The notes: a model not told the origin generated them from the sequence alone. A stretch of DNA of 64,000 nt from Candidatus Hadarchaeota archaeon (GCA_964564905.1 CAZMCI010000001.1:7986-71985), one strand, 5' to 3'. Counted from the first letter of the stretch, positions 8,938 to 27,346 are shown. Made by a program: numbers and translations.

Positions 8938-9306
8938 TTGAAGGCTTTAAAACGTGTGTTTGGGGGTTCGAAGACTGAAGAGAACGCCGTAAGCGAGGTT
9001 CCCGTCATGGAGGTAGAAACTGCCAACACGGTAAGGGCTCCCAGCGAACTCGAACCGATTTACGTGAAAAGCATGGAATTGAGAAGCCTAGTGGATGTAC
9101 AAGAAGTGGCAGAAGAACTCAAAAACGGCAATATCATGATTCTCGATATCAGCACGCTCATGAATCAGGACCAAGAAGAGCTAAAACGGGCGATAGATCA
9201 GATAAAAGGAATCTCTCAGGCCATCGGTGGGGATATCGGCCGTCTCACGGAATCTAAAGTTATCGCAACTCCCCGATTTGTAAATATTCAGTTCAGGAAA
9301 CCCTAG
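8938..9306 (+). CDS. sepF: Cell division protein SepF homolog (DUF552)
   Basis: C-terminal SepF domain IMILDISTLMNQDQEELKRAIDQIKGISQAIGGDIGRL; TTG start as in the ORF track. Confidence 0.65.
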   Translation: MKALKRVFGGSKTEENAVSEVPVMEVETANTVRAPSELEPIYVKSMELRSLVDVQEVAEELKNGNIMILDISTLMNQDQEELKRAIDQIKGISQAIGGDIGRLTESKVIATPRFVNIQFRKP

Positions 9307-14727: not shown

Positions 14728-15189
14728 TCAGCCAAGCCACTGATAAGGATTAAACTCGGACGGCGGGATGAACATCACTTCAGCATATCCCCTACGAAGA
14801 AGCTCTGCATTCAGATTCACCCAACATCCCCCAATTTTGACGTACACAACTGCAATTGTCCGACCGTAACGGTCCGCCGGGCCGAGATCATCGACATCCA
14901 AACCAATTATTTTCCCTGATGGACAAAGCCCCTCGACGAACTCTTTCGCCTCGAGCCCATCACCTGAGGAAGTTTCAGGGGTGTTTACCCCGACCAATCT
15001 GACTTCCTCTCCACCTTGAATGATGATAGTGTCGCCATCCACCACATACCACACCCTCTCCTCCCGCTCGATATGTGGTAAAGATGAGCTATCCACTGAA
15101 CCTGTCGGGACAAAAATTCCGCTTAAAAATACAACACCGAATGCCGCCGCGATAAAGATCAAAACCATCAGCCGGTTTGACCTGTTCAT
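14728..15189 (-). CDS. Membrane-anchored thermonuclease (staphylococcal nuclease/SNase-like)
   Basis: N-terminal TM helix. SNase motifs YVVDGDTIII and VRLVGVNTPE. Confidence 0.6.
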   Translation of the reverse strand: MNRSNRLMVLIFIAAAFGVVFLSGIFVPTGSVDSSSLPHIEREERVWYVVDGDTIIIQGGEEVRLVGVNTPETSSGDGLEAKEFVEGLCPSGKIIGLDVDDLGPADRYGRTIAVVYVKIGGCWVNLNAELLRRGYAEVMFIPPSEFNPYQWLG

Positions 15190-15444
15190 CCCCCCGCTCG
15201 GTCTTTGCGTGGAAGGTTCCTTTAAAGGGAAAATTAGGGCTCTGTTTCAAACTCGGGAGACGGACCAATAAATCCGAGCCCGCAATCGTCCCAAAGCCAG
15301 GGGGCACTTGGCGTCTTCGATGCGTGGACATGCAAGATCATGGGGCGAGATGGGAAGATCGAAAAGGCCAGAATACCCCCTTTGGTATGCCATCTTCCGA
15401 AGGTGAAGCAGAACCAATTTTAGTCAAGTGACGACAAATCAATA

Positions 15445-15735
15445 TTGATATCCATGAAAGCCAGAGCTCACGTTTTCATCACCGGACGTGTCACCGGTGT
15501 CTTCTTCAGGTACTACACCCAACAACTGGCCAGAAAACTGGGCGTGAATGGGTGGGTTAGAAATTTGCGCGATGGAAGGGTCGAGGCCGTCTTCGAGGGG
15601 GGACGTGAAGAGGTGGAGAAAATGGTGAAATTCTGTCATGATGGACCCCCTGGTGCAAGAGTGACGGATGTTGAAGTCAAATGGGAGGAATACAAGAGCG
15701 AGTTCTCGGGATTTGAGATAAGGTACTGGGGATGA
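15445..15735 (+). CDS. acyP: Acylphosphatase
   Basis: VxGxVQGVxFR-type motif ([14 protein letters not shown]), [17 protein letters not shown]; 96 aa. Confidence 0.8.
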
Positions 15736-16199
15736 ATATGAGCGTTCGTTCGCTGGCTGAGATTATGGAGGAGATGCGTAAGTATTACAAAGCCAACCCA
15801 GAACTCCGCCGGAAGTGGAGGGTCCTAGCAGGGAGCGATGAATATGGTTTTAGCGATTTATTCTTCTACGCGCCAAAGCTGGGGATATGGCAGATCAAAG
15901 GCGAGCTGAGGTCACCTAACGAACTCATAGGGGCTGGAGCTCGAGTTTCGGCGAGAAAGATCGACGAGGAAATCAGAGCATTGATGGAGCAGGGGACACC
16001 CGTGCCGTTCGGTCTCATCTCGCCCCACCCTAAGCTGAGGGACCACGCAATCATCGCGACAGGTTTGGGACGGTATCAGGAAACAACCAAGCAATTAAAA
16101 GAGCACCTCACGAGTCGGGAGCGCAAAGCGGATGCGGAACTCAAGAAAAGAATCGAGAGGTTGCGGCGCGAGCTGGGCCTTGACTTGGCCTACCTCTAA
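15732..16199 (+). CDS. Hypothetical protein (155 aa), translationally coupled to acyP
   Basis: 4-nt overlap with the acyP stop; no recognisable motif. Confidence 0.4.
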
Positions 16200-16243
16200 C
16201 CCAACCAAAAATAAGCTTCCTCACGCATATTTGGCTGATAAAA

Positions 16244-19105
16244 ATGTATGAAAAAACTAACGTGTTCGAGCTATTGGCGAAACCCATCCGCAAGTTGCTA
16301 GCTGAACGTGGGTTGACCGAACCAACTTTACCGCAACAGAAGTCCATCCCAAAAATTCTGGAAGGTAAAAACGTGCTGTTGATTGCGCCAAGCGGTACTG
16401 GAAAGACGGAAAGCGCGTTCTTGCCAGTGCTCCACCAACTACTGCTCTCCCAGAGCCGTGAACCCGGAATCAAAGTCCTTTACGTAACACCGCTCAGGGC
16501 CCTCAACCGTGACATGCTCGAACGTCTGGAGTGGTGGTGCCGTGCTTTAGACTTACGAATATCTGTACGCCACGGTGACACGACGGCGCGCGAGAGAAGA
16601 ACCCAAGCCCTGTTTTCCTCTGATGTGATGATCACCACCCCGGAAACGCTTCAGATATTCTTACTGGGACGGAGGTTGAGCGAACACCTCCGGGGGGTGA
16701 GATGGGTGATCATAGATGAGGTTCACGAACTCGCGGACAACAAACGGGGAGCCCAACTTGCCTTGACGCTGGAACGTCTTCGCGAACTTAAAGGAGGTGA
16801 GTTCCAGCTTATCGGGCTTTCGGCCACTATAGGATCTCCACAGGAAGTCGCCCGGTTTTTGGTGGGGACGGGACGCCCCTGCGAAATCGTCGATGTGAGC
16901 GTCGCGCGCGAACTCAGGATAGATGTGGAATACCCGGAACCAACCAAGCGCGACCTTGGACTCGCAAATGAACTCTACACGTACCCTCCCGTCGCAGCTA
17001 GGCTTCGGTTGATGCGGAAACTCATCGAAGAACACGGCTCCACGTTGATTTTCACGAACACCCGCCCGACCGCGGAAGTGCTCGCGAGCCGCTTCAAGCT
17101 CTGGGACATCCGCTTTCCCCTCAGCGTCCACCATGGCTCCCTCTCAAGCTTTTCCCGCCTCAGGGCCGAGCGTGCGCTGAAACAAGGGGAAGTCAAGGGG
17201 ATAATCTGTACCTCATCGATGGAACTCGGACTGGATATAGGACGCATCGACCTCGTCATCCAGTATAACTCCCCCAGACAGGTGACTCGATTGTTGCAGC
17301 GAGTGGGTCGCAGTGGTCACCGGATAGGTGAAGTGGCTAAAGGGGTCATCGTGGTTCAGGACCCGGATGATGCCCTTGAATCCATAGTCATCGCCGCACG
17401 GTCACGCCAGCGGAAACTCGAACCGGTATCGGTCGTCCAAAAGCCCCTGGACGTGCTCCTGCACGCCCTTGTCTCGATGCTCACGGTGAGGAGCAGGAGT
17501 GGGGTCGATGAAGCTTATGAGGTGTTCAGGCGCGCATATCCATTCAAGGACCTCACAAAGGAGGACCTGATTAACGTGCTCAATTTCGCGCAGAGCTTGG
17601 AAAAACAGCTCCTGTGGGTGTCCAAGGACGGAAAGGAATTTGCGCGCCCGAGGTCCAAGGAACGCGTCTTCGAGTACTATTTCGGCAACCTCTCCATGAT
17701 TCCCGAGTTCCGTCAGTACCTCGTAGTGGACGATGAAAAAAACCAACCAGTCGGGATTCTCGACGAGTCCTTCGTGGCGGAGTACGGTGAACCGGGTGTG
17801 AAATTTGTGATCGGTGGCGAGATATGGAGAATTCTGCAGGTCTTCAGAGACAGGGTATATGTGAGATCCGATAGGGACCCGCTTGGAGCGATTCCAACTT
17901 GGATAGGAGAGGAAATCCCGGTACCTTACTCAGTGGCTCAAGAGGTGGGAAAGCTTAGGGGGTGGCTCGACGAACTCCTGCGGAAAAACAAAAAATTTGA
18001 GGAAGCAGCCGCCGAGCTCGCAAAACACTACGATGTATCGACCAAAACGATGGCACTCGCCCTCGCCGACGCCCACAAGCAGATCAACGCGGGTTTACCG
18101 CTACCCACAGACCGGAGGATTACCGTAGAGCGTGTAAAAGAGATATGCGTGGTCAACGCTTGCTTCGGGACTCTCGTTAATCGAACCCTCGCGCGCCTGC
18201 TAGCTTACAAGGCCTCGTTGGAGCTGGGTGAAACGGTATCAACCTCGGTGGACCCTTATCGGATCTTGCTCCGCTCGGAAACACTGAAACCAAAGCAAGT
18301 TATCGAAATCCTCAAGGGAAGGCTCAGCGCAGATCTCAAGCGCGACTTGCGTGAGATCATCGAGCAGAGTCGCTTCTTCCGCTGGAGGCTGTCACAGGTA
18401 GCTAGGCGAATGGGCGTCCTCGAGCGCGAAGCCGAAATCACGAGTGCCGTCCTGGATAAGCTCATGCATGCGTTGAGAGGCACTTCGGCGTTCGAGGAAA
18501 CGTTCAAAGAAGTCGTGCGTAAGGACCTCCACTTAGAGCGATCACTTGAGGTGCTGGAACGCATCAAAAAAGGAGAAATTGAGGTGGTATCGTTGGGAGA
18601 ACTGCCGGAACCGACCCCGGTGTCCAGCTCGGCTTGGCGACAACGCTACCTCGCTCTTGAACCCGTGATGCCCGAGCGTCTCAGATTGCTAGCAATAGCC
18701 TCTACCAAAGCGCGCCTCCTCAGTGAAGCCAGAACCTTCGCCTGCACCCAATGCAAACGCTATGTGGGGGAGCTCCAAATTTACGAGCTCGATGAACGCC
18801 CCAAGTGTCCTCGCTGTGGGTCGACTAAATTGGGGATGACGGAAAAATCTGAGGAAGAGGTACAACGAGCGATCGAGCTGTCCGAGAAGGGCAGAACTGT
18901 AGCACTCTGGCGGACACTGCAAGAAAGCGCAAAACTCATCTCTCGATACGGGAAAACAGCTGCTCTCGCGTTGGTCGGGCGAGGGATAACACCGGCAGCT
19001 GCGGGAGACATTTTATCTAGGGAACCAAAGTTTTCGAACAAATTCATAGAACTCCTGCTCAGAAAAGAACGGGATGCTCTCCTCAAGCGGTTCAGGTGGG
19101 CGTGA
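16244..19105 (+). CDS. Lhr-type (Ski2-like superfamily 2) DEVH-box helicase with C-terminal zinc ribbon
   Basis: Walker A APSGTGKT, DEVH box (IIDEVHEL), helicase C motifs, CTQCKRY...CPRCGS near the C-terminus; 953 aa. Confidence 0.7.
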   Translation: MYEKTNVFELLAKPIRKLLAERGLTEPTLPQQKSIPKILEGKNVLLIAPSGTGKTESAFLPVLHQLLLSQSREPGIKVLYVTPLRALNRDMLERLEWWCRALDLRISVRHGDTTARERRTQALFSSDVMITTPETLQIFLLGRRLSEHLRGVRWVIIDEVHELADNKRGAQLALTLERLRELKGGEFQLIGLSATIGSPQEVARFLVGTGRPCEIVDVSVARELRIDVEYPEPTKRDLGLANELYTYPPVAARLRLMRKLIEEHGSTLIFTNTRPTAEVLASRFKLWDIRFPLSVHHGSLSSFSRLRAERALKQGEVKGIICTSSMELGLDIGRIDLVIQYNSPRQVTRLLQRVGRSGHRIGEVAKGVIVVQDPDDALESIVIAARSRQRKLEPVSVVQKPLDVLLHALVSMLTVRSRSGVDEAYEVFRRAYPFKDLTKEDLINVLNFAQSLEKQLLWVSKDGKEFARPRSKERVFEYYFGNLSMIPEFRQYLVVDDEKNQPVGILDESFVAEYGEPGVKFVIGGEIWRILQVFRDRVYVRSDRDPLGAIPTWIGEEIPVPYSVAQEVGKLRGWLDELLRKNKKFEEAAAELAKHYDVSTKTMALALADAHKQINAGLPLPTDRRITVERVKEICVVNACFGTLVNRTLARLLAYKASLELGETVSTSVDPYRILLRSETLKPKQVIEILKGRLSADLKRDLREIIEQSRFFRWRLSQVARRMGVLEREAEITSAVLDKLMHALRGTSAFEETFKEVVRKDLHLERSLEVLERIKKGEIEVVSLGELPEPTPVSSSAWRQRYLALEPVMPERLRLLAIASTKARLLSEARTFACTQCKRYVGELQIYELDERPKCPRCGSTKLGMTEKSEEEVQRAIELSEKGRTVALWRTLQESAKLISRYGKTAALALVGRGITPAAAGDILSREPKFSNKFIELLLRKERDALLKRFRWA

Positions 19106-19167
19106 AGGTGTCCAGAAAGTTATCTCCTCGCTCTTCTTAGAAATCGTCCGCACCAAAAGTTTTGACC

Positions 19168-19800
19168 TTACTCAGCTTTCTTTTCATCTCTTGTTTCAGC
19201 TTCCGGTTCAGTTTTTATCTCGCTGGATTTTTCCACCTCTTTTCCAAGTAATAACCCGAGAAGGGTACGTTGATCGATCTCCGCACGGGTGCGCCATCCG
19301 ATATAGAGCAACCCCTCATCGTCCTCGCTCAGGTACCCCCTCCTGATGAAGCGATCAATAGTTGACTCAATACGCCAGCGCGGAAATTTCTCCTCGAGCA
19401 CCCGCTCCACCTCCTTCAGCTGAGCCTTTCCCCCCTTTGCAAGGATATGGGAGAGGGCCACCGTAAGCATCGCCATGTCATCGATTCTCCACCCGAACGT
19501 TCTCGCTTCCGTGAGTCTCGGATGGCCTTTGAGAGTGACAAAGTAACGATCCGATTCCGATCCCTCTTCACCCTCACTTACATGTTTCACCATCAGACCA
19601 AGCTTCCCCAATTCAGCATCGAGTAGCTTCAAAATCTCTCGATATTCTCTGCCCAGCGCCCGCTTCAACTCCCAGGTCTTTGCCCCGGGTTGCATATGAT
19701 GTCTGAACAAAAGCAGCTGAGCCGCGCGCGCAAGTTTTTCCCTCAGCTCCAAGATCTCACGGTCTTCACCCATGTTTTCTCCTCTCGAGCCATTCCTCAC
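19168..19800 (-). CDS. ScpB-like protein (two predicted winged-helix domains), last gene of the smc-like/scpA operon
   Basis: Position and size fit ScpB; weak direct similarity. Overlaps the scpA stop. Confidence 0.4.
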   Translation of the reverse strand: MRNGSRGENMGEDREILELREKLARAAQLLLFRHHMQPGAKTWELKRALGREYREILKLLDAELGKLGLMVKHVSEGEEGSESDRYFVTLKGHPRLTEARTFGWRIDDMAMLTVALSHILAKGGKAQLKEVERVLEEKFPRWRIESTIDRFIRRGYLSEDDEGLLYIGWRTRAEIDQRTLLGLLLGKEVEKSSEIKTEPEAETRDEKKAE

Positions 19801-20557
19801 GTGAAATGGATATCGGAATCGAAAACGTGGCGACCTGTTCCAGCTTTTCTGGCTTTGGAAGTGGTCTGAGTACTATCTCCTCTTCAAGCGGCTTGAGTTC
19901 AAGTGTGGCGTATCCGTAACTGACTAGAAAACTCACCAGCCAAGCTTTGAGCACCGTATCCTCAAAACTCTCCTCGGATATGAAATCCCAATAGGACATT
20001 TCCCCCCTGTCGCCAGCGGAGTCCTTCAGTTCCCTCCACGTTTTGTCCAACATGGCAGCAAAATCCTCGTCCGAGAGTATCCCCATTCGGGCCAGTTCTC
20101 TGCGTGCTACCTCGCCAGTCAAAATCTCCACCGTCTCCAAGTCACGCCAACGCTCATCCAGACTGGGCAGATTTGTCCAGTACTCTCTAGCCTCCCTTAT
20201 TCCGGGGGGTGAAAGACATTCCAAGTCGATGATGGGATGCCATGCACGCACCAAGATCTCCGCCAAATCTTTTATGGACAACGCGTGTAGCTTTAGCATT
20301 ATCAACAGGGGATCTAAGTAAAGCATCGACGATTTGTGTTTGATCCATTCCTCCTGCTGAAAAACGACCTCTGCCAGACCAAGCACAGCTTGGATGTCCA
20401 GATAAAGCTCACTCTGTTTTTGGAGTTTCGGTAAAAGCTCCCTAAGCCTATCAAAGAACTCACGGACTTCCACGTCAAACGGATCCAATCCCCTCTTCCT
20501 CACGGAATCGCAAAGATCGATTATCCTGAGCATCAACTCTTGCTGTTCACCCCTCAT
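19766..20557 (-). CDS. scpA: Segregation and condensation protein A (kleisin ScpA)
   Basis: N-terminal ScpA-like helix pair ending ...HKSSML (IKS-type motif); C-terminal winged helix FLVSYGYATLE; 263 aa. Confidence 0.6.
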   Translation of the reverse strand: MRGEQQELMLRIIDLCDSVRKRGLDPFDVEVREFFDRLRELLPKLQKQSELYLDIQAVLGLAEVVFQQEEWIKHKSSMLYLDPLLIMLKLHALSIKDLAEILVRAWHPIIDLECLSPPGIREAREYWTNLPSLDERWRDLETVEILTGEVARRELARMGILSDEDFAAMLDKTWRELKDSAGDRGEMSYWDFISEESFEDTVLKAWLVSFLVSYGYATLELKPLEEEIVLRPLPKPEKLEQVATFSIPISISREEWLERRKHG

Positions 20558-22477
20558 CTAAACCGCCACCTTCACTCGGGAAGCACCTGCGAGATTTTGG
20601 ACTGTTATCACGTGAGGCACACCCTCCAGGCTCACCAGCTGACCGGGAGTTATAACAATGTACTGGGTCTTCTCCCCCTTCATAAAATCTATGATCCCAG
20701 AAAATATCGCCTCCCGGTTGCGTGGATCGAGATGAGCCTCAAATTCATCAATCGCGCGGATCGGTGATTGAATCCGTTGTTGAAGCGCCAGCAGAAAACA
20801 CATGATCGCGGTGGTGCGTTCTCCTCCACTTTGAGTGTACGCATCGAGCACCTGAGGCGCCGCGCCTTTAAACCCAACGAGTAACTCCAGCCCAGCTTCA
20901 TCTATGTCCTGGAGATTGACCGCTCGAACGTCGCCAACTGCGTGAACCTTTTCCAACACTTCAGCATACTTTTTCTTGAGTTCCCGGAACAACTCATTTA
21001 TCTCGTCGACCCATCGCTGTTTTCTCAGCTCCAACTCCTCAAGTGCCCGACGTCGATTTGCCGCGGCAACTTCGGCCTTTGCCTCCAGTTCTTTCAACGT
21101 GCTTCTGTAGTTCAGATACATCCGTTCAACATCGGGGGATACGTCGGCAAGATTTGCAAGCTTCATGTTCGTGAACTTCAGCTCGTCCAAGACCTCCTGA
21201 GGCTTTCGCTTGGTCTCTACCCTGGGACCTATTCTCTTGGCCTCATTCTCGAGTTGTTCGAGCTCTCGTCTGACCCTGCGCAGCTCTGACCGAGCTGCAG
21301 AAACGTCCCTTTCGAGGAGTTCTCGTCTGAGACCAAGAACCGCTCCTCTGACTCGGGAGCTGACATAGCTCTCATGAACTTGCTCATTTTCCTCCTTTAT
21401 CCTGACGAGCTTGGACCTCGTCTCCTTAGCGTGCGTGCCGGCCTCGACGGAACTCCTCCGAGCCCGCTCGAGCTCTGCTGAGAAACTTTTCACCATTTCC
21501 TCTGGTTCTGCTCCGACCGATCGCAGAGAGCTGCGGATCCACTCCATCAGCTTGACCCTTGCCTCCGATTCGGCCTGTATTCGTTCTTGTTCGATCAATC
21601 TTTGATACGCGCTGTCCAGCTCAAATTCCAGTTCCCTGAGCTTCTTTTCCAACTCCCGTTGCTTTTTGGAGTTTTCACTCAACTCTCCGATGACCTCTTC
21701 TAACTCACCGTTTAATTCATCTAGTTTTGAGTGGAGGGTTCCAGCCACTTCTTCCTGTCTGATGCATTTGGCCCAAGCGTATTCGAGCTCCAGCTTGTTC
21801 TTCATCTCTACGAGTTCCTGCTTTTTCCGAAAACGATGGTATTCTCCCTCCCAATAACGCAGAGTCTCACGGGCTTTTTCAAGCAGGTTTCGGGTGGACT
21901 CCTCCTCACTAAGTGTATGGGAAAGTTTTTCCCTAGCCTCCAAGATCCGTTCGCGGTACTCCCGAAGGCCCACGGCCTCTTCCACAAGCGTCAACCGTTC
22001 GGTGGGATCTATCGCTCCAAATAGGTCAACCATATTCTGATGCATTATGATGAGCATGTTATCCGGGTTGATCGAAAGCCGGCGAAGGAGCCTCAGGACC
22101 TCCCCCTTGGTAACGGTCCTGCCATTTATCTCGTGCCAGTATGTACCATCTCGACTTAGGTAGCGAGAAAGCACGATCGTGTCTGAATTTATGCTGGGGA
22201 TGGGGCGCTTATCGTTGTTGGTGGAGTTGTCGAAGACTATACTAACACGTCCGAGATCCTTTCCCCTACGGATGAGGTCACTGAGCTTTCTGGAGCGTTC
22301 AGTATAGGTCTGTCCCAAGGCCACGGCCAAACCAAGCAATATGGAGGACTTGCCCGCACCATTGGGTCCGCAGATCAAATTGAGTCCGGGACTAAGGGGA
22401 ACCCTGGAATACTCGTGGGACATGAAATTTTCGAGGATGATCTCCCGGACCAAGGCCCTCGTAGGCATGGATACCAA
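20558..22477 (-). CDS. Short SMC-like ATPase (639 aa): Walker A/B head split by a ~330-aa coiled coil, no hinge domain
   Basis: GPNGAGKSS Walker A; signature motif QSGGERT; Walker B/D-loop AIDEFEAHLD; heptad-rich middle. Directly upstream of scpA-scpB on the same strand. Confidence 0.7.
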   Translation of the reverse strand: MVSMPTRALVREIILENFMSHEYSRVPLSPGLNLICGPNGAGKSSILLGLAVALGQTYTERSRKLSDLIRRGKDLGRVSIVFDNSTNNDKRPIPSINSDTIVLSRYLSRDGTYWHEINGRTVTKGEVLRLLRRLSINPDNMLIIMHQNMVDLFGAIDPTERLTLVEEAVGLREYRERILEAREKLSHTLSEEESTRNLLEKARETLRYWEGEYHRFRKKQELVEMKNKLELEYAWAKCIRQEEVAGTLHSKLDELNGELEEVIGELSENSKKQRELEKKLRELEFELDSAYQRLIEQERIQAESEARVKLMEWIRSSLRSVGAEPEEMVKSFSAELERARRSSVEAGTHAKETRSKLVRIKEENEQVHESYVSSRVRGAVLGLRRELLERDVSAARSELRRVRRELEQLENEAKRIGPRVETKRKPQEVLDELKFTNMKLANLADVSPDVERMYLNYRSTLKELEAKAEVAAANRRRALEELELRKQRWVDEINELFRELKKKYAEVLEKVHAVGDVRAVNLQDIDEAGLELLVGFKGAAPQVLDAYTQSGGERTTAIMCFLLALQQRIQSPIRAIDEFEAHLDPRNREAIFSGIIDFMKGEKTQYIVITPGQLVSLEGVPHVITVQNLAGASRVKVAV

Positions 22478-22653
22478 CTTAATTTATGTATTCAAGTGTG
22501 AACTACCCCCAGCTTTCGCAGGGGGCTTCCTGCTTCAGCAGCGGGGCCTGTTTTTGATGGGTAAAGACGGAACCTGTACGAGAGCATTAACTCATCCCTC
22601 ATGTATTTAGCCGGGGGTTCTTTATATAGGAAAACTCGGCTTCTCCGCTCCCT

Positions 22654-22690
22654 CCCTTTCAAAAGGGAACTTCTCGGCGGTAAAGTTAAA
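22654..22690 (+). promoter_or_regulatory. Palindrome CCCTTTCAAAAGGG followed by CGGCGGTAAAGTTAAA (BRE/TATA candidate) upstream of the hypothetical gene at 22725
   Basis: Motif shared with the sepF, psmB and minD upstream regions. Confidence 0.35.
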
Positions 22691-22724
22691 GGAAGTCCAG
22701 TATTTAAATGTGGGGGGTAACTCG

Positions 22725-23429
22725 ATGGTGCTGGTAGCCAAGGTATTCGAATTTAAAGAACCCATAGAACTGTCCATCGCGGCCAAGAAGCTCAAAGATT
22801 TTTCGGAGGAGGAACCATACGAATCCGGAGATAAAAGCACAAAGCTCACCACGGAGATACTCGACCTAAAAATGGAAGGAGAGGTGCTCAGAGGGGTTTT
22901 CAGCAGGGATTTCGTGCTCAGCCGATATTACAAGAGGGGCCTCGTGGAGACCGTGGTCACGGAGGAGGTGCCCTTCCTCATCAAACGGTCTGGTGGGAGA
23001 ACTTTCTTGGTGGTACTCGCACCGTCAAAGGCCCGTGGTGTGAAGAAACTGCTAACCAACTACGTGGCAAACAAGCTCAGCGAGATCCTGTTCATAAAAA
23101 CCGGTGCGATCGTCGAGGTGAAGATCACACACGAGACACTAAAGAACCTACACGAGTCCAACCCTCGGGCGACCAAGCTGATCTGGTTTGATGATGTAGA
23201 CATCCCGGATATAGGAAAGCTCGCCCTCGCGGGATCTGGGCTCGCAGATACCAAGCTTTATCACGAGTATCTAAAACACGGGAAGATATGGTACTGTGTG
23301 TTCGAGGTGCAGAAACGTGGGTTCACGGTAGGAATAACCAGGAATTGTGTGGTAACACTGTTCACGCAAATCGACCCCGAGGAGTTCATCAATTACATTA
23401 TGAATGACGTGCTGCCGCTAATTTCTTAG
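22725..23429 (+). CDS. Hypothetical protein (234 aa from ATG 22725; the ORF track starts at GTG 22710)
   Basis: No recognisable domain. Divergent from the SMC-like operon and carries the shared promoter motif. Confidence 0.5.
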   Translation: MVLVAKVFEFKEPIELSIAAKKLKDFSEEEPYESGDKSTKLTTEILDLKMEGEVLRGVFSRDFVLSRYYKRGLVETVVTEEVPFLIKRSGGRTFLVVLAPSKARGVKKLLTNYVANKLSEILFIKTGAIVEVKITHETLKNLHESNPRATKLIWFDDVDIPDIGKLALAGSGLADTKLYHEYLKHGKIWYCVFEVQKRGFTVGITRNCVVTLFTQIDPEEFINYIMNDVLPLIS

Positions 23430-23440
23430 GAGGGTTTTTG

Positions 23441-23465
23441 TGGTGCAGCTGGCGGGATTCGAACC
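23441..23465 (-). other. tRNA 3'-end-like fragment (acceptor 3' strand + CCA + T-loop GGTTCGAATCC); putative attachment-site remnant, not an intact tRNA
   Basis: The minus strand reads ...GGTTCGAATCCCGCCAGCTGCACCA. No complementary 5' acceptor strand nearby, and the T-stem does not pair. Confidence 0.4.
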
Positions 23466-23608
23466 TCACAACCCTTATTTTGGATAGGATGTTTTCATAC
23501 CGGTATACCAAAAAGCTTTTTCTTTCTGTTTTTGTATATTATGCTCTATTTGTATATTTATATAACAAAAGTCTTAAATATCTAATTTTGTCATATTAAT
23601 ATGAAAAC

Positions 23609-23974
23609 ATGAAAATTGAGGACCATATTCAGAAGCTGAAAGCTATGGAGAAGACATTTGATAAACTGGACGGGCAATCAGACTATGAAGCTATAGTCGA
23701 GCTCTGCATGCTGATTTCTGCACATTATACAAACGCCGCGTTGCACAGACTTAATGTAACACCGACCGACAGAGACATCAAACATAACAAGCTGGCTGGT
23801 GAAATAACCCGGCGGCGCGTGGAGGAGCTTTTCAGCGTCGCAGAAGCAACCAGTGCGCTTGAACAGCTCAGGCCAAGGCACATTTACGGCAAGGGCACCG
23901 ACGGAGAAGTTGCTAGGAGAGCTTTGGAGAACCTGAGGAGGGTTCGAGATACATGTATGCAGGTACTCGACTAA
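23609..23974 (+). CDS. Small helical protein, possible HEPN-like partner of the downstream nucleotidyltransferase
   Basis: 121 aa, overlaps the MNT gene by 22 nt, RDIKH motif; gene order typical of HEPN/MNT modules. Confidence 0.3.
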   Translation: MKIEDHIQKLKAMEKTFDKLDGQSDYEAIVELCMLISAHYTNAALHRLNVTPTDRDIKHNKLAGEITRRRVEELFSVAEATSALEQLRPRHIYGKGTDGEVARRALENLRRVRDTCMQVLD

Positions 23975-24546
23975 GGGACCTGTTTGACTTCGGGGAAAGC
24001 GTCGGGAAACTTCCCAACGTGCTGGCCGTAACGCTGTTCGGAAGCGCCGCTAGGGGTGAGGCGACAATCGAGAGCGACATCGATGTCGCTGTGATCTATG
24101 CGAGGAAAAACGATGCTGTCATGAAGCAGGTTGAGAGGCTGGCTCCGCCACGCGTCCACGTGGTGCATGTCACCACCAAAGAGCTCGCAAAAAATATCTC
24201 GTTGGGAGGCGCGCTGAGCGGAGAGGCGCTCCTCCTGTTCGGAAAACCCGTGATGATACAGGCGCAAAAACTCAAGCTCAGGCCCATGATGATAATCGCC
24301 TACGATACCACCGGGCTCGACCAAAACACTAGGAACAAACTGAACCACGCGCTATACGGCAGGGCGTACAGAGGAAGCGGGCGCGGGGGGAAACTTTACA
24401 GGTACGAGGGAATCGCGACGCGCCCAGGCATTTTAAAACTCGGTAAAGCTGTGTTGTTAATCCCTCGAGAGAATACATCGATTATCACGAAAACTCTTGA
24501 AGCCCACGGTGCGAAATGGCAGGAAATTCCGGTCTGGACGTACTGA
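23953..24546 (+). CDS. Pol-beta-superfamily nucleotidyltransferase (MNT-like)
   Basis: LFGSAARGEATIESDIDVAVIY (GS...SD[IV]D motif). Confidence 0.7.
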   Translation: MYAGTRLRDLFDFGESVGKLPNVLAVTLFGSAARGEATIESDIDVAVIYARKNDAVMKQVERLAPPRVHVVHVTTKELAKNISLGGALSGEALLLFGKPVMIQAQKLKLRPMMIIAYDTTGLDQNTRNKLNHALYGRAYRGSGRGGKLYRYEGIATRPGILKLGKAVLLIPRENTSIITKTLEAHGAKWQEIPVWTY

Positions 24547-24619
24547 TCTGGAAAAATTGATGCGGCCGTATTTGGTCATAGACATAAATATGCTGTCTCA
24601 TCATTCACCCGTTTGAAAC

Positions 24620-24647
24620 TTGGTGCGGCCAGCGGGCATTCGAACCC
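24620..24647 (-). other. Second tRNA 3'-end-like fragment (TTGGTGCGGCCAGCGGGCATTCGAACCC)
   Basis: The minus strand reads GGGTTCGAATGCCCGCTGGCCGCACCAA; incomplete tRNA features. Confidence 0.35.
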
Positions 24648-24676
24648 TAGAAAAGGTTAGTCCAAAGATCGAGAAG

Positions 24677-24713
24677 TGTAGTACGTAACATTTAAAAACT
24701 TGTAGTACGTAAC
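24677..24713 (+). promoter_or_regulatory. Two direct copies of TGTAGTACGTAAC flanking a TTTAAAAA TATA-like box, 10-45 nt upstream of the putative antitoxin gene; probable operator/promoter
   Basis: Exact 13-nt repeat at 24677-24689 and 24701-24713. Confidence 0.4.
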
Positions 24714-24721
24714 TGATATCG

Positions 24722-24982
24722 GTGAATCTCGTGGTGCACGTCAGACTCAGGACAATTAAAGGCAACAAATATTTTTACCTTTACACATCCGAGCGCATCG
24801 GTGGCCAGCCCAGATCTAAGTACATCGCCTACTTGGGTCGTGCGGGTTCGAACGTGGGCCGCAGGTTGCCGAGAAAATACAGATCCCGTGAGCTTGTGGA
24901 ACGGGTCAGAGCACTCGAGTTCGATGCGAGGTTAGACGAGATACTCAAAAAAAGACATGATGTGATGGTGAGACTCGGGTGA
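24722..24982 (+). CDS. Small basic protein, putative antitoxin of the downstream Fic/Doc protein
   Basis: 86 aa, 4-nt overlap with the Doc-family gene. Confidence 0.35.
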   Translation: MNLVVHVRLRTIKGNKYFYLYTSERIGGQPRSKYIAYLGRAGSNVGRRLPRKYRSRELVERVRALEFDARLDEILKKRHDVMVRLG

Positions 24983-25443
24983 CAACAGATCCGGATTGTC
25001 TAAGAACGGAAGAAATACTCAAAATCAACCAGGAACTCGCCAGACGGGACTTTCCATACACGGGGTCTGATGAATATCCAGTCAGAAAGGAAAAAATAGA
25101 ACATTTGGTTAGAGCCGTCCCGTCCCGGAGCCCGATCGATGTCGCAGCATATTACCTTAAGAACTTGCCACTGCTTCAGCCTTTTCCCGACGGCAACCAC
25201 CGGACCGCGCTAATCGCAGTAGAGATATTTTTGGAACGAAAAGGATATCGCTTTGACTACACCGAGGAAGAGGCGAATCAGCTAAGGAACCAGATGCTGA
25301 GCCTGCAGTTCAAGCTCTACGGCACTTACGAGGAGTTGCCGGAAGCGGTGACTGAAGAGCCTGACAATGAACTTTTCCGTCTGTGCCGCGATTTCATAAA
25401 AAAACACGCAATACGCGGCCGTCCCAAAACCCAGTCGAAGTAG
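24979..25443 (+). CDS. Fic/Doc-family protein (death-on-curing-like toxin)
   Basis: Fic/Doc motif PFPDGNHRTALIA (HxFx[DN]GNxR-like). Confidence 0.65.
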   Translation: MTTDPDCLRTEEILKINQELARRDFPYTGSDEYPVRKEKIEHLVRAVPSRSPIDVAAYYLKNLPLLQPFPDGNHRTALIAVEIFLERKGYRFDYTEEEANQLRNQMLSLQFKLYGTYEELPEAVTEEPDNELFRLCRDFIKKHAIRGRPKTQSK

Positions 25444-25454
25444 GTTGTCTTGAA

Positions 25455-25472
25455 TTTGGTGCGGCCGGCGGG
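25455..25472 (-). other. Third, degenerate tRNA-acceptor-like fragment (TTTGGTGCGGCCGGCGGG) inside a TTGAATT/AATTCAA inverted repeat
   Basis: Shares TTGGTGCGGCC.GCGGG with the fragment at 24620. Confidence 0.25.
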
Positions 25473-25606
25473 TAGTGGATTTCAATTCAAACTTATCAGA
25501 CCAAATTCCCCTTACGCGAATGATTTTAGTGGACTCTTGTAACGGGTCTCCGAATCTAACGCAAATATAATAACTGGGGGGGACATAAGTATTGAATTGG
25601 TTGAGA

Positions 25607-26440
25607 TAGATGCTGTTAACTTAGCACCTCCATCCACGTTCTGAAACCTCCTTCGCCGCCGCTCGGTGGCCAGCCTAACGACATGTGTTGCCTGCATTTG
25701 TTGTACCAAAAACAGAAAACCACGGCAAAGTTTTGAATCGTCTTCAATCGCTGGGTCGGGAAGTAGCAGTCAAACGCGCGCAACCTATCCTTGAACGTCT
25801 CGAACCAGCGCTCGATGTGGTTGCGCTCTCCGCCGCACATCACGATGTGCTTCAGTCCAAGCCGCCGCGTCGGCCATCGGTACCAGGGACCACCATCGGT
25901 GATGATAACTGGCTTCCCCTTGCAGTAGCGAAGGCAGCGCTTGAGGAATCTCAGCGTATCGATGCTCTCCCGGTACTTTGTCGCCAGCAGATATACGATC
26001 TCGCGATTTTCGGGGTCTACGGCCCCAAAAACGTAAATCCAGCCGCTTTTCGTGCGGATCTTGGTCTCGTCGACGACGAGGCAGCGCCTCCGCCTCCGTC
26101 TGAACACACGTTCCTTCAGGACCTGTCCGAGTTTCTGGACCCACTTCCAGATCGCCACATGCGATACTCGTGCGCCCAAATCACGTAGGAGTTCCTTGAG
26201 CCTGCGGAGGCTGGATCCTTGCGCGTAGAGATACGAGGTGAAGACTTTCACCTCCAGTGCCACGCGCTTGCGCACGAAAATGCTTTTTGTCTGTTGACCC
26301 AACAGACTACTTGGGGCCAGGTGGGTAAGGAACTCTTTGAGTTCCGACGACATTGGAAATCACCTCCTATGTGTCCCCCACCGCCCCAAATCCAGCAAAG
26401 AATATCTCTAGGAGGAAAATCTTAAGTTAACAGCATCCAT
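25607..26440 (-). mobile_element. IS6-family insertion sequence (~830 bp) with 15-bp terminal inverted repeats GATGCTGTTAACTTA
   Basis: The left end at 25609-25623 and the reverse complement of the right end at 26421-26438 share GATGCTGTTAACTTA. Single DDE transposase ORF inside. No clear target-site duplication. Confidence 0.7.
25616..26353 (-). CDS. IS6-family DDE transposase
   Basis: VVDETKIRTKSGWIYVFGAVD...ITDGGPWY...HIERWFETFKDRL matches the IS6 D-D-E arrangement; 245 aa. Confidence 0.75.
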   Translation of the reverse strand: MSSELKEFLTHLAPSSLLGQQTKSIFVRKRVALEVKVFTSYLYAQGSSLRRLKELLRDLGARVSHVAIWKWVQKLGQVLKERVFRRRRRRCLVVDETKIRTKSGWIYVFGAVDPENREIVYLLATKYRESIDTLRFLKRCLRYCKGKPVIITDGGPWYRWPTRRLGLKHIVMCGGERNHIERWFETFKDRLRAFDCYFPTQRLKTIQNFAVVFCFWYNKCRQHMSLGWPPSGGEGGFRTWMEVLS

Positions 26441-26491
26441 TTAGAAGGTAAAATAAAGTAATTGCACATCTTATAAACAATAGAGATAAAG

Positions 26492-27346
26492 ATGTCGAAA
26501 TCCCCCGTTACATTCTCGGTACTGTTACCATCCTCCCTCGTCGCAGATGCTCCAGACCTTCGCCAGAAAACTGTCAAAGTTGGATCAGTGGGGCGCGCAC
26601 TTGCCATCTTCGGTGTTGATAAAGTTTGCATTTACAACGACGATGACCCCTACACAAAAAACCAAACTATCGAGGCAAAGCTAATTGCTTCTCTTCTGCG
26701 CTACATGGAAACGCCCCAATACCTGCGCAAGCTCCTTTTCTCTCGCACGAAAGAACTACGATATGCCGGTCTGTTGCCCCCTCTCCGTACACCCCACCAT
26801 CCACTGGATGGAGAAAAAACTAAGCCTGGAGATCTGCGGGAGGGTGTGGTCACTCAGAGCGGTGAAAGTGGTAGTCTCGTGGAGATGGGTCTTCGGGAAA
26901 AAGGCATAACCAGGAAAAGACTGCGGAGCGGATGTCGTTTAACGGTCAAATTGGGCAAAAGATTGGGAGATGGAAGGGTGGAGGTCAGCCAGGTCTCCAA
27001 AGAAGATGTGAGGGAATATTGGGGGTATGAAGTGCTGACCGCTAACAGCCTCAGAGAGGGCTTAAATCGGCTCGATATAGACTACAAAATAGGAACCTCC
27101 AGACACGGCAGAAATTTATATGAGGCCGTGAGGGGTATAAAAGAAAGCAGCCCCAAAAGCGTGGGGGTGGCCTTCGGGGGACCGTATGCCGGTCTCTTCG
27201 AGATCTGCAGGCGTCAGGGCGTCGATATTGAAGAGCTCTTCGACGCTGTGGTGAACACGATCCCCGGACAGAGGACCGCGACGGTTAGGACCGAGGAGGC
27301 ACTCATGGCCACGCTTTCGGTGCTGAACGCGCTCATAGGGGAATAA
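26492..27346 (+). CDS. Putative SPOUT-superfamily RNA methyltransferase (COG2106/DUF171-like) heading the uL3 operon
   Basis: Conserved position upstream of rpl3 in archaea; the C-terminal half has a SPOUT-like glycine-rich stretch (VGVAFGGPYAGL); weak direct similarity. Confidence 0.45.
   Translation: MSKSPVTFSVLLPSSLVADAPDLRQKTVKVGSVGRALAIFGVDKVCIYNDDDPYTKNQTIEAKLIASLLRYMETPQYLRKLLFSRTKELRYAGLLPPLRTPHHPLDGEKTKPGDLREGVVTQSGESGSLVEMGLREKGITRKRLRSGCRLTVKLGKRLGDGRVEVSQVSKEDVREYWGYEVLTANSLREGLNRLDIDYKIGTSRHGRNLYEAVRGIKESSPKSVGVAFGGPYAGLFEICRRQGVDIEELFDAVVNTIPGQRTATVRTEEALMATLSVLNALIGE

What the first reader, a model, noticed from the sequence alone, without database searches (positions are those of the whole stretch)
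23430..26440. 3-kb accessory island between the chromosome-maintenance genes and the ribosomal superoperon: two toxin-antitoxin modules, three tRNA-3'-end-like fragments, an AT-rich spacer and an IS6 element
The content is: a tRNA 3'-fragment; a ~110-bp spacer that is visibly more AT-rich than the rest of the window (23500-23608); HEPN-like/MNT; a second tRNA-like fragment; Phd-like/Doc, whose operator repeats flank a TATA box; a third fragment; and the IS6. Each toxin-antitoxin cassette is followed by a ~20-30-nt sequence resembling the 3' acceptor/T-arm of a tRNA (TGGTGC-GC...GCGGG-ATTCGAACC). None forms a complete tRNA. This is the signature of serial site-specific integrations into tRNA genes (attL/attR remnants), or of cassette-type mobilisation.
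Basis: partly seen in the sequence, partly recalled or inferred. Interest (0 to 1): 0.6.

Follow-up and report, generated by a model that had tools for sequence, protein, structure and literature searches.

The report
Toxin-antitoxin cassette array at a tRNA-Gly site
In this uncultivated archaeon (Hadesarchaea), mobile DNA inserted repeatedly into the end of a glycine tRNA gene, leaving two small toxin-antitoxin cassettes separated by leftover tRNA ends; this is an ordinary way of building a genomic island, seen here in miniature.

Summary
Three same-orientation copies of a tRNA 3' end lie at 23441-23465, 24621-24647 and 25457-25472 (0.07 expected by chance). They separate a HEPN-like/nucleotidyltransferase cassette, a Doc-family cassette and an IS6 element.

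The parent is tRNA-Gly(CCC). The closest relative (L006) has an intact, intron-bearing tRNA exactly where fragment 1 sits, and its homology to the window stops inside that tRNA.

Other Hadesarchaea show the same layout: fragment, short insert, intact tRNA. The same two cassettes recur at tRNA-Gly(CCC), tRNA-Gly(GCC) and tRNA-Thr, with left repeats that mostly match the local tRNA.

Fragment 3 carries a ~25-nt arm. In L018 and L100 this arm marks the far end of 7-8 kb islands that encode a zinc-ribbon tyrosine integrase next to the tRNA.

The AT-rich spacer is the first cassette's own conserved promoter region.

The junction with the ribosomal operon is secondary. A sister assembly has the IS6 with a 9-bp flanking duplication (8-bp IS6-type) and a different downstream gene.

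This is a new member of a known kind, a tandem, partly decayed integrative-element array. No integrase or intact tRNA lies in the window.

The parts
22725..23429 (+). Conserved 234-aa gene of unknown function. It is the stable left flank of the integration hot spot.
   Evidence: 80 orthologous loci at 65-97% aa identity. What follows its stop codon varies widely between relatives. No Pfam or NCBIfam match.
23441..23465 (-). F1: displaced 3' end of tRNA-Gly(CCC), covering CCA, the acceptor 3' strand, the T-stem 3' strand, the T-loop and 2 nt more. It carries two transitions in the acceptor part.
   Evidence: It sits at the position of the intact tRNA in L006:10716-10807. Window-L006 homology (94% over 763 nt) ends at 23465.
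23466..24557 (+). Cassette A (~1.1 kb): its own AT-rich promoter/operator region (about 23500-23608), a HEPN-like gene (23609-23974) and an MNT-type nucleotidyltransferase gene (23953-24546).
   Evidence: Pfam and NCBIfam hits. HEPN fold. The same unit, including the AT-rich region, is followed by a tRNA-Thr-type 3' fragment (decayed in L086) and preceded by a tRNA-like fragment in L087 and L088-L091.
24558..24620 (-). Possible fourth att copy (TGATGCGGCCG, 24558-24568) followed by a ~52-nt remnant. The remnant looks like a left arm (TATTTGGTC...) plus a right arm (...GTTTGAAACT) with no cargo.
   Evidence: Repeat family D1. TATTTGGTC is shared with the left arm of L100. This part is weak and inferred.
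24621..24647 (-). F2: a tRNA-Gly 3'-end copy (TGGTGCGGCCAGCGGGCATTCGAACCC) lying between cassettes A and B.
   Evidence: The extra C (GCGGGCATT) is shared with the junctions in L007, L009, L018 and L032.
24648..25456 (+). Cassette B (~0.8 kb): operator repeats TGTAGTACGTAAC (24677-24689, 24701-24713) around a TATA-like box, an 86-aa putative antitoxin (24722-24982), a Doc-family gene (24979-25443) and the right end GTTGTCTTGAATT.
   Evidence: The same unit, with both ends conserved, lies next to an intact tRNA-Gly(CCC) in L096-L098. The same genes, operator and right end lie next to tRNA-Gly(GCC) in L093-L095, with a different, longer left segment.
25457..25497 (-). F3: a 16-nt tRNA-Gly core plus the conserved left arm TAGT-GGATTTCAATTCAAAC-TTATC. 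This is the distal junction of an integrase-type island.
   Evidence: The same core plus arm occurs in L018, L032 and L007, and with a tRNA-Glu core in L100. L018 and L100 encode the integrase.
25498..25608 (+). Start of element C, upstream of a 1324-aa secreted-protein gene in the sister assembly. It includes the IS6 target site GTTGAGATA (25600-25608).
   Evidence: L003 continues past the IS6 into a Laminin_G_3 / Peptidase_C25 gene.
25609..26437 (-). IS6-family insertion sequence (829 bp) with terminal inverted repeats GATGCTGTTAACTTA. The transposase gene is 25616-26353(-).
   Evidence: A 9-bp direct repeat GTTGAGATA (8-bp IS6-type target duplication plus one base) flanks it in L003 but not in the window.
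26438..26491 (.). Non-native junction leading to the RNA methyltransferase gene (26492-27346) and the ribosomal operon.
   Evidence: L003 diverges from the window exactly at 26438. Relatives have rtcB directly upstream of the methyltransferase. rtcB is absent from the window.

Best explanation
The region is a tandem array of small integrated elements at the 3' end of a tRNA-Gly(CCC) gene.

How the array formed:
- A tyrosine recombinase joins an element site to the tRNA 3' end. The element site has the form right arm - core - left arm, and the core equals the tRNA's CCA/acceptor end.
- Each insertion rebuilds the tRNA on one side. On the other side it leaves a tRNA-end copy followed by element DNA.
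- Repeated insertions give this order: flank gene | F1 | cassette A (HEPN-like/MNT) | weak copy plus arm-only remnant | F2 | cassette B (antitoxin/Doc) | F3 plus left arm | element C.

The cassettes:
- Neither encodes an integrase.
- They are either moved in trans by integrases of the L018/L099/L100 family, or they are what survives of larger elements because toxin-antitoxin pairs resist loss.

Later event: an IS6 inserted into element C. The present link to the ribosomal operon comes from recombination between two IS6 copies or from an assembly join at the repeat.

Shown: the fragment identity, the empty site in a relative, the recurring layout and arms, and the cassettes at other tRNAs.

Inferred: the recombinase responsible, the order of the events, and mobilisation in trans.
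For: - The fragments are non-random and share one orientation.
- L006 has an intact tRNA (Rfam 55 bits, intron in the anticodon loop) at F1's position. Homology to the window ends inside that tRNA.
- The same layout (fragment, insert, intact tRNA) occurs in L009, L018, L030 and L032. It also occurs at tRNA-Thr in L087.
- The 8.2-kb insert in L018 encodes a tyrosine recombinase (Phage_integrase, 3e-20) next to the tRNA.
- The F3 arm is conserved for about 25 nt in the window, L018, L032 and L007, then the sequences diverge.
- Related integrases in L099 and L100 sit next to tRNA-Glu with the same arms around a tRNA-Glu core.
- Cassette B lies at tRNA-Gly(CCC) in L096-98 and at tRNA-Gly(GCC) in L093-95. 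In each case the left repeat matches the local tRNA.
- Cassette A occurs in at least three contexts and next to two tRNA types.
- The IS6 has a 9-bp flanking direct repeat (8-bp IS6-type target duplication plus one base) in L003 but none in the window.
Against: - The window holds no intact tRNA-Gly and no integrase. The right end of the array was therefore never seen for this genome, and L003 ends inside the next gene.
- The genome's own tRNA set could not be examined.
- No excised circle or other direct sign of current mobility was observed.
- Cassette A's left ends carry no recognisable arm.
- In L093/L094 an extra ~200 nt lies between the fragment and cassette B, so the unit is not identical everywhere.
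- The fragments are short (11-27 nt).
Confidence: 0.85

Rival explanations
1. The cassettes were never mobile on their own. They are the last survivors of larger integrase-bearing islands whose other genes were deleted, and they persist because losing a toxin-antitoxin pair is harmful.
For: - An arm-only 52-nt remnant (24569-24620) and a 144-nt remnant in L009 show that elements can decay down to their ends.
- No integrase lies within any small array examined.
- The spacing between the left fragment and cassette A's promoter varies from about 8 to 110 nt.
- Cassette B in L093/L094 has about 200 extra nt on its left.
Against: - Both ends of cassette B are conserved between the window and L096-98, in a different neighbourhood.
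- Cassette B sits at two different tRNA-Gly genes, with left repeats that match each target.
- Cassette A, at about the same 1.1 kb, is bounded by tRNA ends in several contexts.
- Independent decay would not be expected to stop at the same borders each time.
Confidence: 0.3
2. The fragments are working pieces of split or permuted tRNA genes, joined in trans as in Nanoarchaeum or Caldivirga.
For: - ARAGORN finds no tRNA in 64 kb.
- The sequence next to F3 is conserved in relatives.
- Several tRNAs of this lineage carry introns.
Against: - The fragments keep only 16-27 nt, far less than a 3' half.
- In L018 and L032 the F3-type fragment sits alongside an intact tRNA-Gly at the same locus.
- F1 has two unpaired-type substitutions, and F2 has an extra base in the T-loop.
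- The conserved arm recurs with a tRNA-Glu core next to an integrase.
Confidence: 0.02
3. This is an integron-like cassette array: the cassettes are captured through attC-type sites by an integron integrase.
For: - It is an array of short cassettes, and toxin-antitoxin cassettes with their own promoters are typical of chromosomal integrons (my own knowledge).
- The NCBIfam model that best matches the L018 integrase is named 'tyrosine recombinase/integron integrase'.
Against: - The boundaries are direct copies of a tRNA 3' end, not imperfect palindromic attC sites.
- The integrase scores far below the integron-integrase cut-offs (60.6 bits against 265).
- No integrase or attI lies next to the array.
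Confidence: 0.03
4. The similarity to a tRNA arose by chance, or the island is an assembly artefact.
For: The window's right junction is probably chimeric or recombinant.
Against: - 0 of 100 shuffles give three hits.
- Two independent assemblies reproduce 23265-25638 and 14979-26437.
- The orthologous intact tRNA is present in L006.
Confidence: 0.01

Closest known systems
Tandem arrays of tRNA/tmRNA-targeting genomic islands. Examples are the Dehalococcoides ssrA islands (PMC3146451), the tycheposon islands of Prochlorococcus (bioRxiv 10.1101/2020.12.28.424599) and integrated elements of archaea (PMC6563490).
   Same: - Site-specific insertion into the 3' end of a small-RNA gene.
- Newer elements push older ones away from the gene.
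- Partial gene copies mark the borders.
- Extra conserved bases next to the repeat mark the element side.
- Degenerate remnants are scattered through the island.
   Different: - The units here are very small (0.05-1.2 kb). Two of them are nothing but a toxin-antitoxin operon with its promoter.
- The host is an uncultivated Hadesarchaeon.
- The recombinase seen in relatives is a tyrosine integrase with a C-terminal zinc ribbon. Dehalococcoides uses a serine recombinase.
- The intact gene end is missing from this window.
Cis-mobilizable elements (CIMEs) of streptococcal integrative elements (defined in PMC6323972)
   Same: Short inserts that keep attL- and attR-type borders but encode neither integration nor transfer functions. 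They lie in tandem ('accretion') with related elements.
   Different: - CIMEs are bacterial, ride on conjugative elements and stay at one att site.
- Here the same cassette appears at different tRNA genes: Gly-CCC, Gly-GCC and Thr.
- Mobilisation has not been shown.
HEPN/MNT (type VII) and Phd/Doc (type II) toxin-antitoxin modules
   Same: - Two-gene overlapping operons.
- A nucleotidyltransferase domain paired with a HEPN-fold partner.
- A Fic/Doc-domain protein preceded by a small overlapping gene.
- A repeated operator around the promoter.
   Different: - The HEPN-like gene lies upstream of the nucleotidyltransferase and matches no sequence family.
- The nucleotidyltransferase has a 125-aa C-terminal extension.
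- The Doc-like motif reads QxFP(D/N)GNHR, with Gln where the usual His sits. This is invariant in the subfamily.
- The 86-aa partner matches no antitoxin family.
IS6-family insertion sequences
   Same: An 829-bp element with about 15-bp terminal inverted repeats, one DDE transposase and an 8-bp target duplication, seen in L003.
   Different: In the window its two flanks do not match. This copy therefore joins two unrelated regions, either through recombination between copies or through an assembly join.

Membership tests
Integrative-element array at a tRNA gene (tyrosine-recombinase type) | The inserted DNA is bounded by direct copies of the 3' part of a tRNA gene. | tested here: met
   F1, F2 and F3 are in the same orientation. 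They match the tRNA-Gly(CCC) 3' end of relatives.
Integrative-element array at a tRNA gene (tyrosine-recombinase type) | An unoccupied site exists in a close relative: an intact tRNA with the same flank. | tested here: met
   L006 has an intact tRNA at 10716-10807, directly after the orthologous flank gene. Homology to the window ends inside the tRNA.
Integrative-element array at a tRNA gene (tyrosine-recombinase type) | An intact tRNA gene lies at one end of the array. | tested here: inconclusive
   None is found in the window. The array is cut by the IS6, and the sister contig L003 ends inside the next gene. This feature is present in the relatives L009, L018, L030, L032, L087 and L093-97.
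Integrative-element array at a tRNA gene (tyrosine-recombinase type) | An integrase is encoded in or next to the array. | tested here: not met
   tblastn with the L018 integrase found no homologue in the window or in the other 234-aa-gene loci L006-L085. Integrases are present in L018, L099 and L100, which carry the same arms. The window therefore holds only the integrase-less part of such an array.
Cis-mobilizable (integrase-less) element | Keeps both att borders and lacks integration and transfer genes. | tested here: met
   Cassettes A and B each lie between tRNA-end copies. Each encodes only a two-gene module.
Cis-mobilizable (integrase-less) element | Is excised or moved by the recombinase of a related element. 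| not testable with these tools
   There is only indirect support: the same cassettes occur at different tRNA genes, with left repeats that match the target.
Integron gene cassette | An attC recombination site (imperfect palindrome) at the cassette border, with an IntI integrase and attI nearby. | tested here: not met
   The borders are tRNA-end direct repeats, and no long inverted repeats sit at the borders. No integrase is in the window. The L018 integrase scores far below the integron-integrase cut-offs.
HEPN/MNT toxin-antitoxin | A minimal nucleotidyltransferase domain encoded next to a HEPN-domain protein. | tested here: met
   NTP_transf_2 at 1.8e-9, above the Pfam cut-off. The partner's model (pLDDT 92) best matches HEPN domains at TM 0.6-0.73, although Foldseek E-values are only 0.07-0.2. 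The pairing is conserved in 53 homologues.
HEPN/MNT toxin-antitoxin | The HEPN RNase motif Rx4-6H. | tested here: inconclusive
   The invariant residues are H39, N42, H46, D56, H59, R88 and P89. No clear Rx4-6H motif is seen, and the protein scores below the MntA equivalog cut-off. Toxicity was not tested.
Phd/Doc toxin-antitoxin | A Fic/Doc domain with the motif HxFx(D/N)(A/G)NKR. | tested here: inconclusive
   The Pfam Fic hit is above its cut-off (30 bits against 24), while TIGR01550 is below its cut-off. The motif reads QPFPDGNHR, and the Gln is invariant in 14 homologues down to 36% identity.
Phd/Doc toxin-antitoxin | An upstream antitoxin of a known fold (Phd/YefM or similar). | tested here: not met
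   The 86-aa protein has no hit in Pfam, NCBIfam, PHROGs or PADLOC. Only its position, the 4-nt overlap and the conserved pairing support an antitoxin role.
IS6 family | A DDE transposase of the IS6 type, short terminal inverted repeats and an 8-bp target duplication. | tested here: met
   transpos_IS6 scores 127.5 bits against a cut-off of 125. Inverted repeats are present. The flanking direct repeat GTTGAGATA (8-bp duplication plus one base) is seen in L003.

The most novel reading that the evidence does not exclude
Hadesarchaea may carry a pool of miniature, integrase-less cassettes, many of them toxin-antitoxin operons with their own promoters. These would hop between the 3' ends of different tRNA genes (Gly-CCC, Gly-GCC, Thr) and pile up in arrays. 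They would be moved in trans by a widespread family of zinc-ribbon tyrosine integrases that read a short arm-core-arm site. In effect this would be an integron-like cassette system that uses tRNA ends as its recombination sites.
Probability: 0.4. Interest if true: 0.6.

Novelty: new member of a known kind. Interest (0 to 1): 0.33.

Why it matters
It gives a clean, small-scale example of how genomic islands form at tRNA genes in an archaeal lineage known only from metagenomes. It defines a candidate attachment site (arm-core-arm) for a large family of archaeal integrases. It shows that two toxin-antitoxin operons travel as ~1-kb units bounded by tRNA ends. It also warns that the apparent link between this island and the ribosomal operon comes from a repeated IS6 and should not be read as native gene order.

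Tried and rejected
- **Split or permuted tRNA halves.** Rejected. The fragments are too short, and they sit alongside intact tRNAs in relatives.
- **Primer-binding-site-like sequences of a retroelement** (complement of a tRNA 3' end including CCA). Rejected. CCA is encoded in the genes, and F1 shares its flank with the intact gene in L006.
- **Integron attC sites.** Rejected.
- **Partial tRNA hits with Rfam at E up to 10 on 23300-26600.** None were found because the fragments are too short.
- **ARAGORN's tRNA naming.** It calls the L006 tRNA Trp(cca) and those of L030/L032 Gly(tcc). I read all of them as Gly(CCC), with an intron after position 37. My reasons are U33/A37 and the intron-less orthologues in L018 and L096.
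- **Exact look-ups.** The 239-aa flank protein and the window's IS6 transposase found nothing, so other IS6 copies and the genome's own tRNA-Gly could not be located. Cluster look-up gave no accession.
- **Viral collection.** There was no match to the F3 core-plus-arm pattern, the L018 integrase, the Doc-like family or the HEPN-like family.
- **PDB sequence search with the HEPN-like profile.** No hit.
- **Composition.** Apart from the promoter region, the island's GC (0.45-0.58) does not stand out. Codon-usage analysis was not run.


Full report
**Source.** The window comes from a Hadesarchaea genome. A contig named Hadesarchaea archaeon B75_G9 (L001) is 90% identical to it from 26689 onward, and a second Hadesarchaea contig (L002) is 72% identical. 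Two other assemblies cover the island itself. L003 (ENA ERZ27248455) matches window 14979-26437 at 99.84%. L004 (Logan SRR7517633) matches 23265-25638 at 99.75%. The island is therefore not an artefact of one assembly.

**The observation.**
- The pattern TGGTGCGGCCNGCGGG with up to two mismatches occurs three times, at 23441, 24621 and 25457. All three are on the + strand. Chance predicts 0.07 hits, and no shuffle reached three.
- The fragments are reverse complements of a tRNA 3' end, so the tRNA sense is on the minus strand.
- F1 (23441-23465) runs from CCA through the T-loop. F2 (24621-24647) does the same, with one substitution and an extra C. F3 (25457-25472) keeps 16 nt.
- A weak fourth copy, TGATGCGGCCG, lies at 24558-24568.
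- ARAGORN and Rfam find no complete tRNA in the 64 kb.
- The AT-rich stretch is real: GC is 0.30-0.34 against about 0.5.

**The genes.**
- 23953-24546 has a nucleotidyltransferase domain.
- 24979-25443 has a Fic/Doc domain.
- 25616-26353(-) is an IS6 transposase with 15-18-nt terminal inverted repeats.
- The 121-aa protein at 23609-23974 matches no sequence family. Its model (pLDDT 92, pTM 0.87) best matches HEPN domains: human sacsin, AF_0298 and ST0689. TM scores are 0.6-0.73, but E-values are modest.
- The 86-aa protein at 24722-24982 matches nothing in four libraries. 'Phd-like' is therefore unverified.

**The parent tRNA and the empty site.**
- A metagenome scan with the 234-aa gene that precedes F1 returned 80 orthologous loci.
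- In the closest one, L006 (97% aa), an intact tRNA lies on the minus strand directly after that gene (L006:10716-10807).
- Rfam scores this tRNA at 55 bits, with an 18-nt insertion in the anticodon loop.
- Window and L006 are 94% identical from 22703 to 23465. Homology then stops, inside the T-arm of that tRNA.
- The tRNA's 3' end is TGGTGCGGCCGGCGGGATTCGAACCCGCG in + strand reading. F3 matches it exactly over 16 nt, F2 has one mismatch and F1 has two transitions.
- ARAGORN names this tRNA Trp(cca). I read the loop as UUCCCA plus an intron, which is Gly(CCC). Intron-less orthologues in L018 and L096 are called Gly(ccc).

**The same layout in relatives.** The region after the 234-aa gene varies widely between relatives. 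Several relatives show a displaced tRNA-Gly end, then an insert, then the intact tRNA.
- L009 has fragments at 1440 and 2711 and the tRNA at 2855.
- L018 has a fragment at 10745 and the tRNA at 18985.
- L030 has them at 9302 and 10608.
- L032 has them at 3836 and 5473.
- The inserts differ in content. L009 carries another nucleotidyltransferase pair, L030 an AbrB/PhoU protein and L032 membrane proteins.
- The usual right flank is a CBS-domain gene, which is absent from the window.

**The recombinase and its site.**
- The 8.2-kb insert in L018 encodes a 399-aa tyrosine recombinase with a zinc ribbon, right next to the intact tRNA (Phage_integrase 3e-20).
- Its far junction reads core TGGTGCGGCCGGCG plus AGCATTGGATTTCAATTCAAACCTATC.
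- Window F3 continues with TAGTGGATTTCAATTCAAACTTATC. L032 and L007 carry the same arm.
- Beyond about 25 nt all four sequences diverge completely.
- The near junction of L018 carries an inverted version of the arm, ATAAGTTAGAATTGAATTA, just before the tRNA end.
- The integrase family is large, with 1470 homologues at E below 1e-20 from several archaeal orders.
- Two close homologues sit next to tRNA-Glu. L099 has AAGTTAGAATTCAAATT before TGGTGCTCCGGCC.
- L100 is bounded by TGGTGCTCCGGCCG repeats. Its left arm is AGTATTTGGTCTCAATTCAAACC and its right arm is AAGTCTAAATTGAAATT.
- The arms therefore go with the integrase family and the core goes with the target tRNA. F3 is the far junction of such an island.

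**The cassettes elsewhere.**
- The 121-aa gene always travels with a ~198-aa nucleotidyltransferase gene. Most copies lie on contigs of 1-3 kb, as expected if repeats flank them.
- In L087 the pair sits between two copies of ACGTGGAGCCGCCGGTGGG. That array ends in an intact tRNA-Thr(tgt) whose 3' end carries that sequence.
- In L088-L092 the cassette is followed by a tRNA-Thr-type end. In L088-L091 a different tRNA-like end lies upstream.
- In L086 a decayed copy follows it.
- The AT-rich region is conserved upstream of the 121-aa gene in all of these. It is therefore the cassette's own promoter/operator region, not a spacer.
- The Doc cassette lies directly next to an intact tRNA-Gly(CCC) in L096-L098, and both of its ends are conserved there.
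- In L093-L095 it lies next to tRNA-Gly(GCC). The left repeat there reads TGGTGCGGCAGG, matching that tRNA and not the CCC one.
- The operator repeats and the TATA-like box are conserved too.
- Left repeats that match the local target are what site-specific insertion predicts.

**The right border.**
- In L003 the IS6 (window 25609-26437) is flanked by GTTGAGATA on both sides. It is followed by a 1324-aa Laminin_G_3 / Peptidase_C25 gene.
- In the window the right flank is CATTTAGA, so there is no duplication. L003 and the window diverge exactly at 26438.
- The IS6 itself has four mismatches in 829 bp, against four in the 4.4 kb to its left.
- Relatives have rtcB directly upstream of the methyltransferase. 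rtcB is not in the window.
- The link between island and ribosomal operon therefore arose either by recombination between two IS6 copies or by an assembly join at the repeat.

**Interpretation.**
- The island is a tandem, partly decayed array of integrated elements at tRNA-Gly(CCC), later hit by an IS6. I hold this at about 0.85.
- It is open whether cassettes A and B move as units with an integrase supplied in trans (about 0.55-0.6) or are only survivors of larger islands (about 0.3).
- Arrays with partial tRNA or tmRNA copies are well described, as are integrase-less elements that keep their borders (10.1101/2020.12.28.424599; PMC3146451; PMC6323972; PMC6563490).
- A text search found only one paper that mentions Hadesarchaea together with integrase and tRNA, and its subject is Caldarchaeales genomes.
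- I therefore file this as a new member of a known kind.

**Limits.**
- The genome's own tRNA set, its intact tRNA-Gly and any integrase lie outside the available sequence.
- No excision product was seen.
- The toxin activities are untested. The Doc-like motif has Gln where the usual His sits.

Noticed in passing
window 25174-25200 (Doc-like protein residues 66-74): The Fic/Doc motif reads QPFPDGNHR. Gln replaces the usual His, and NHR replaces NKR/NGR. LLQxFP(D/N)(G/A)NHRTAL is nearly invariant in 14 homologues down to 36% identity, with Q, F, P and NHRTAL strictly invariant, so this is a distinct Doc-like subfamily whose chemistry may differ.
   Followed up: partly
L006:10716-10807; L030:10608-10702; L032:5473-5566: ARAGORN names these orthologous intron-bearing tRNAs Trp(cca) or Gly(tcc). 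Read with U33 and A37 they are all Gly(CCC) with an intron after position 37. This is an example of intron placement changing the called anticodon.
   Followed up: partly
L094:6480-6590; L100:11130-11290: The tRNA-Gly(GCC) in L094/L095 and the tRNA-Glu in L100 appear to carry extra or non-canonical introns, and ARAGORN misses them. tRNA genes of Hadesarchaea seem rich in introns.
   Followed up: no
window 15366-15430: Ten of the 18 differences between the window and the sister assembly L003 (14979-26437) cluster in 65 nt. This is a small hypervariable patch or a local recombination tract.
   Followed up: no
window 26438-26491 versus L001:400-430 and L002:1090-1120: In two relatives rtcB ends a few bases before the RNA methyltransferase gene. 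In the window a 54-nt AT-rich stretch with no similarity replaces this, and rtcB is nowhere in the 64 kb.
   Followed up: partly
L027:6990-7060 and L077:1470-1510: Other relatives carry further tRNA debris right after the 234-aa gene. L027 has a + strand fragment GGTTCAAATCCCGCCCGGGGCACCA. L077 has an arm-like GGATTTAATTTCAAACC with no clear core. The site is a long-standing hot spot.
   Followed up: no
L087:8540-8660: Two more degenerate tRNA-end-like pieces (TGGTGCCCCGGGAG... and TGGAGGCACCGGTGGAGTTCAGAAC) precede a pair of 86-aa genes next to tRNA-Thr. This is probably another small two-gene cassette in that array.
   Followed up: no
window 19168-23429: The 234-aa protein, and the 263-aa and 210-aa proteins next to the SMC-like ATPase, have no recorded Pfam hit (the 234-aa one was scanned here; the other two by the precomputed hits). 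Yet the 234-aa protein is conserved at 65-97% across 80 Hadesarchaea-type loci. It may be an uncharacterised partner of the SMC-like protein.
   Followed up: no
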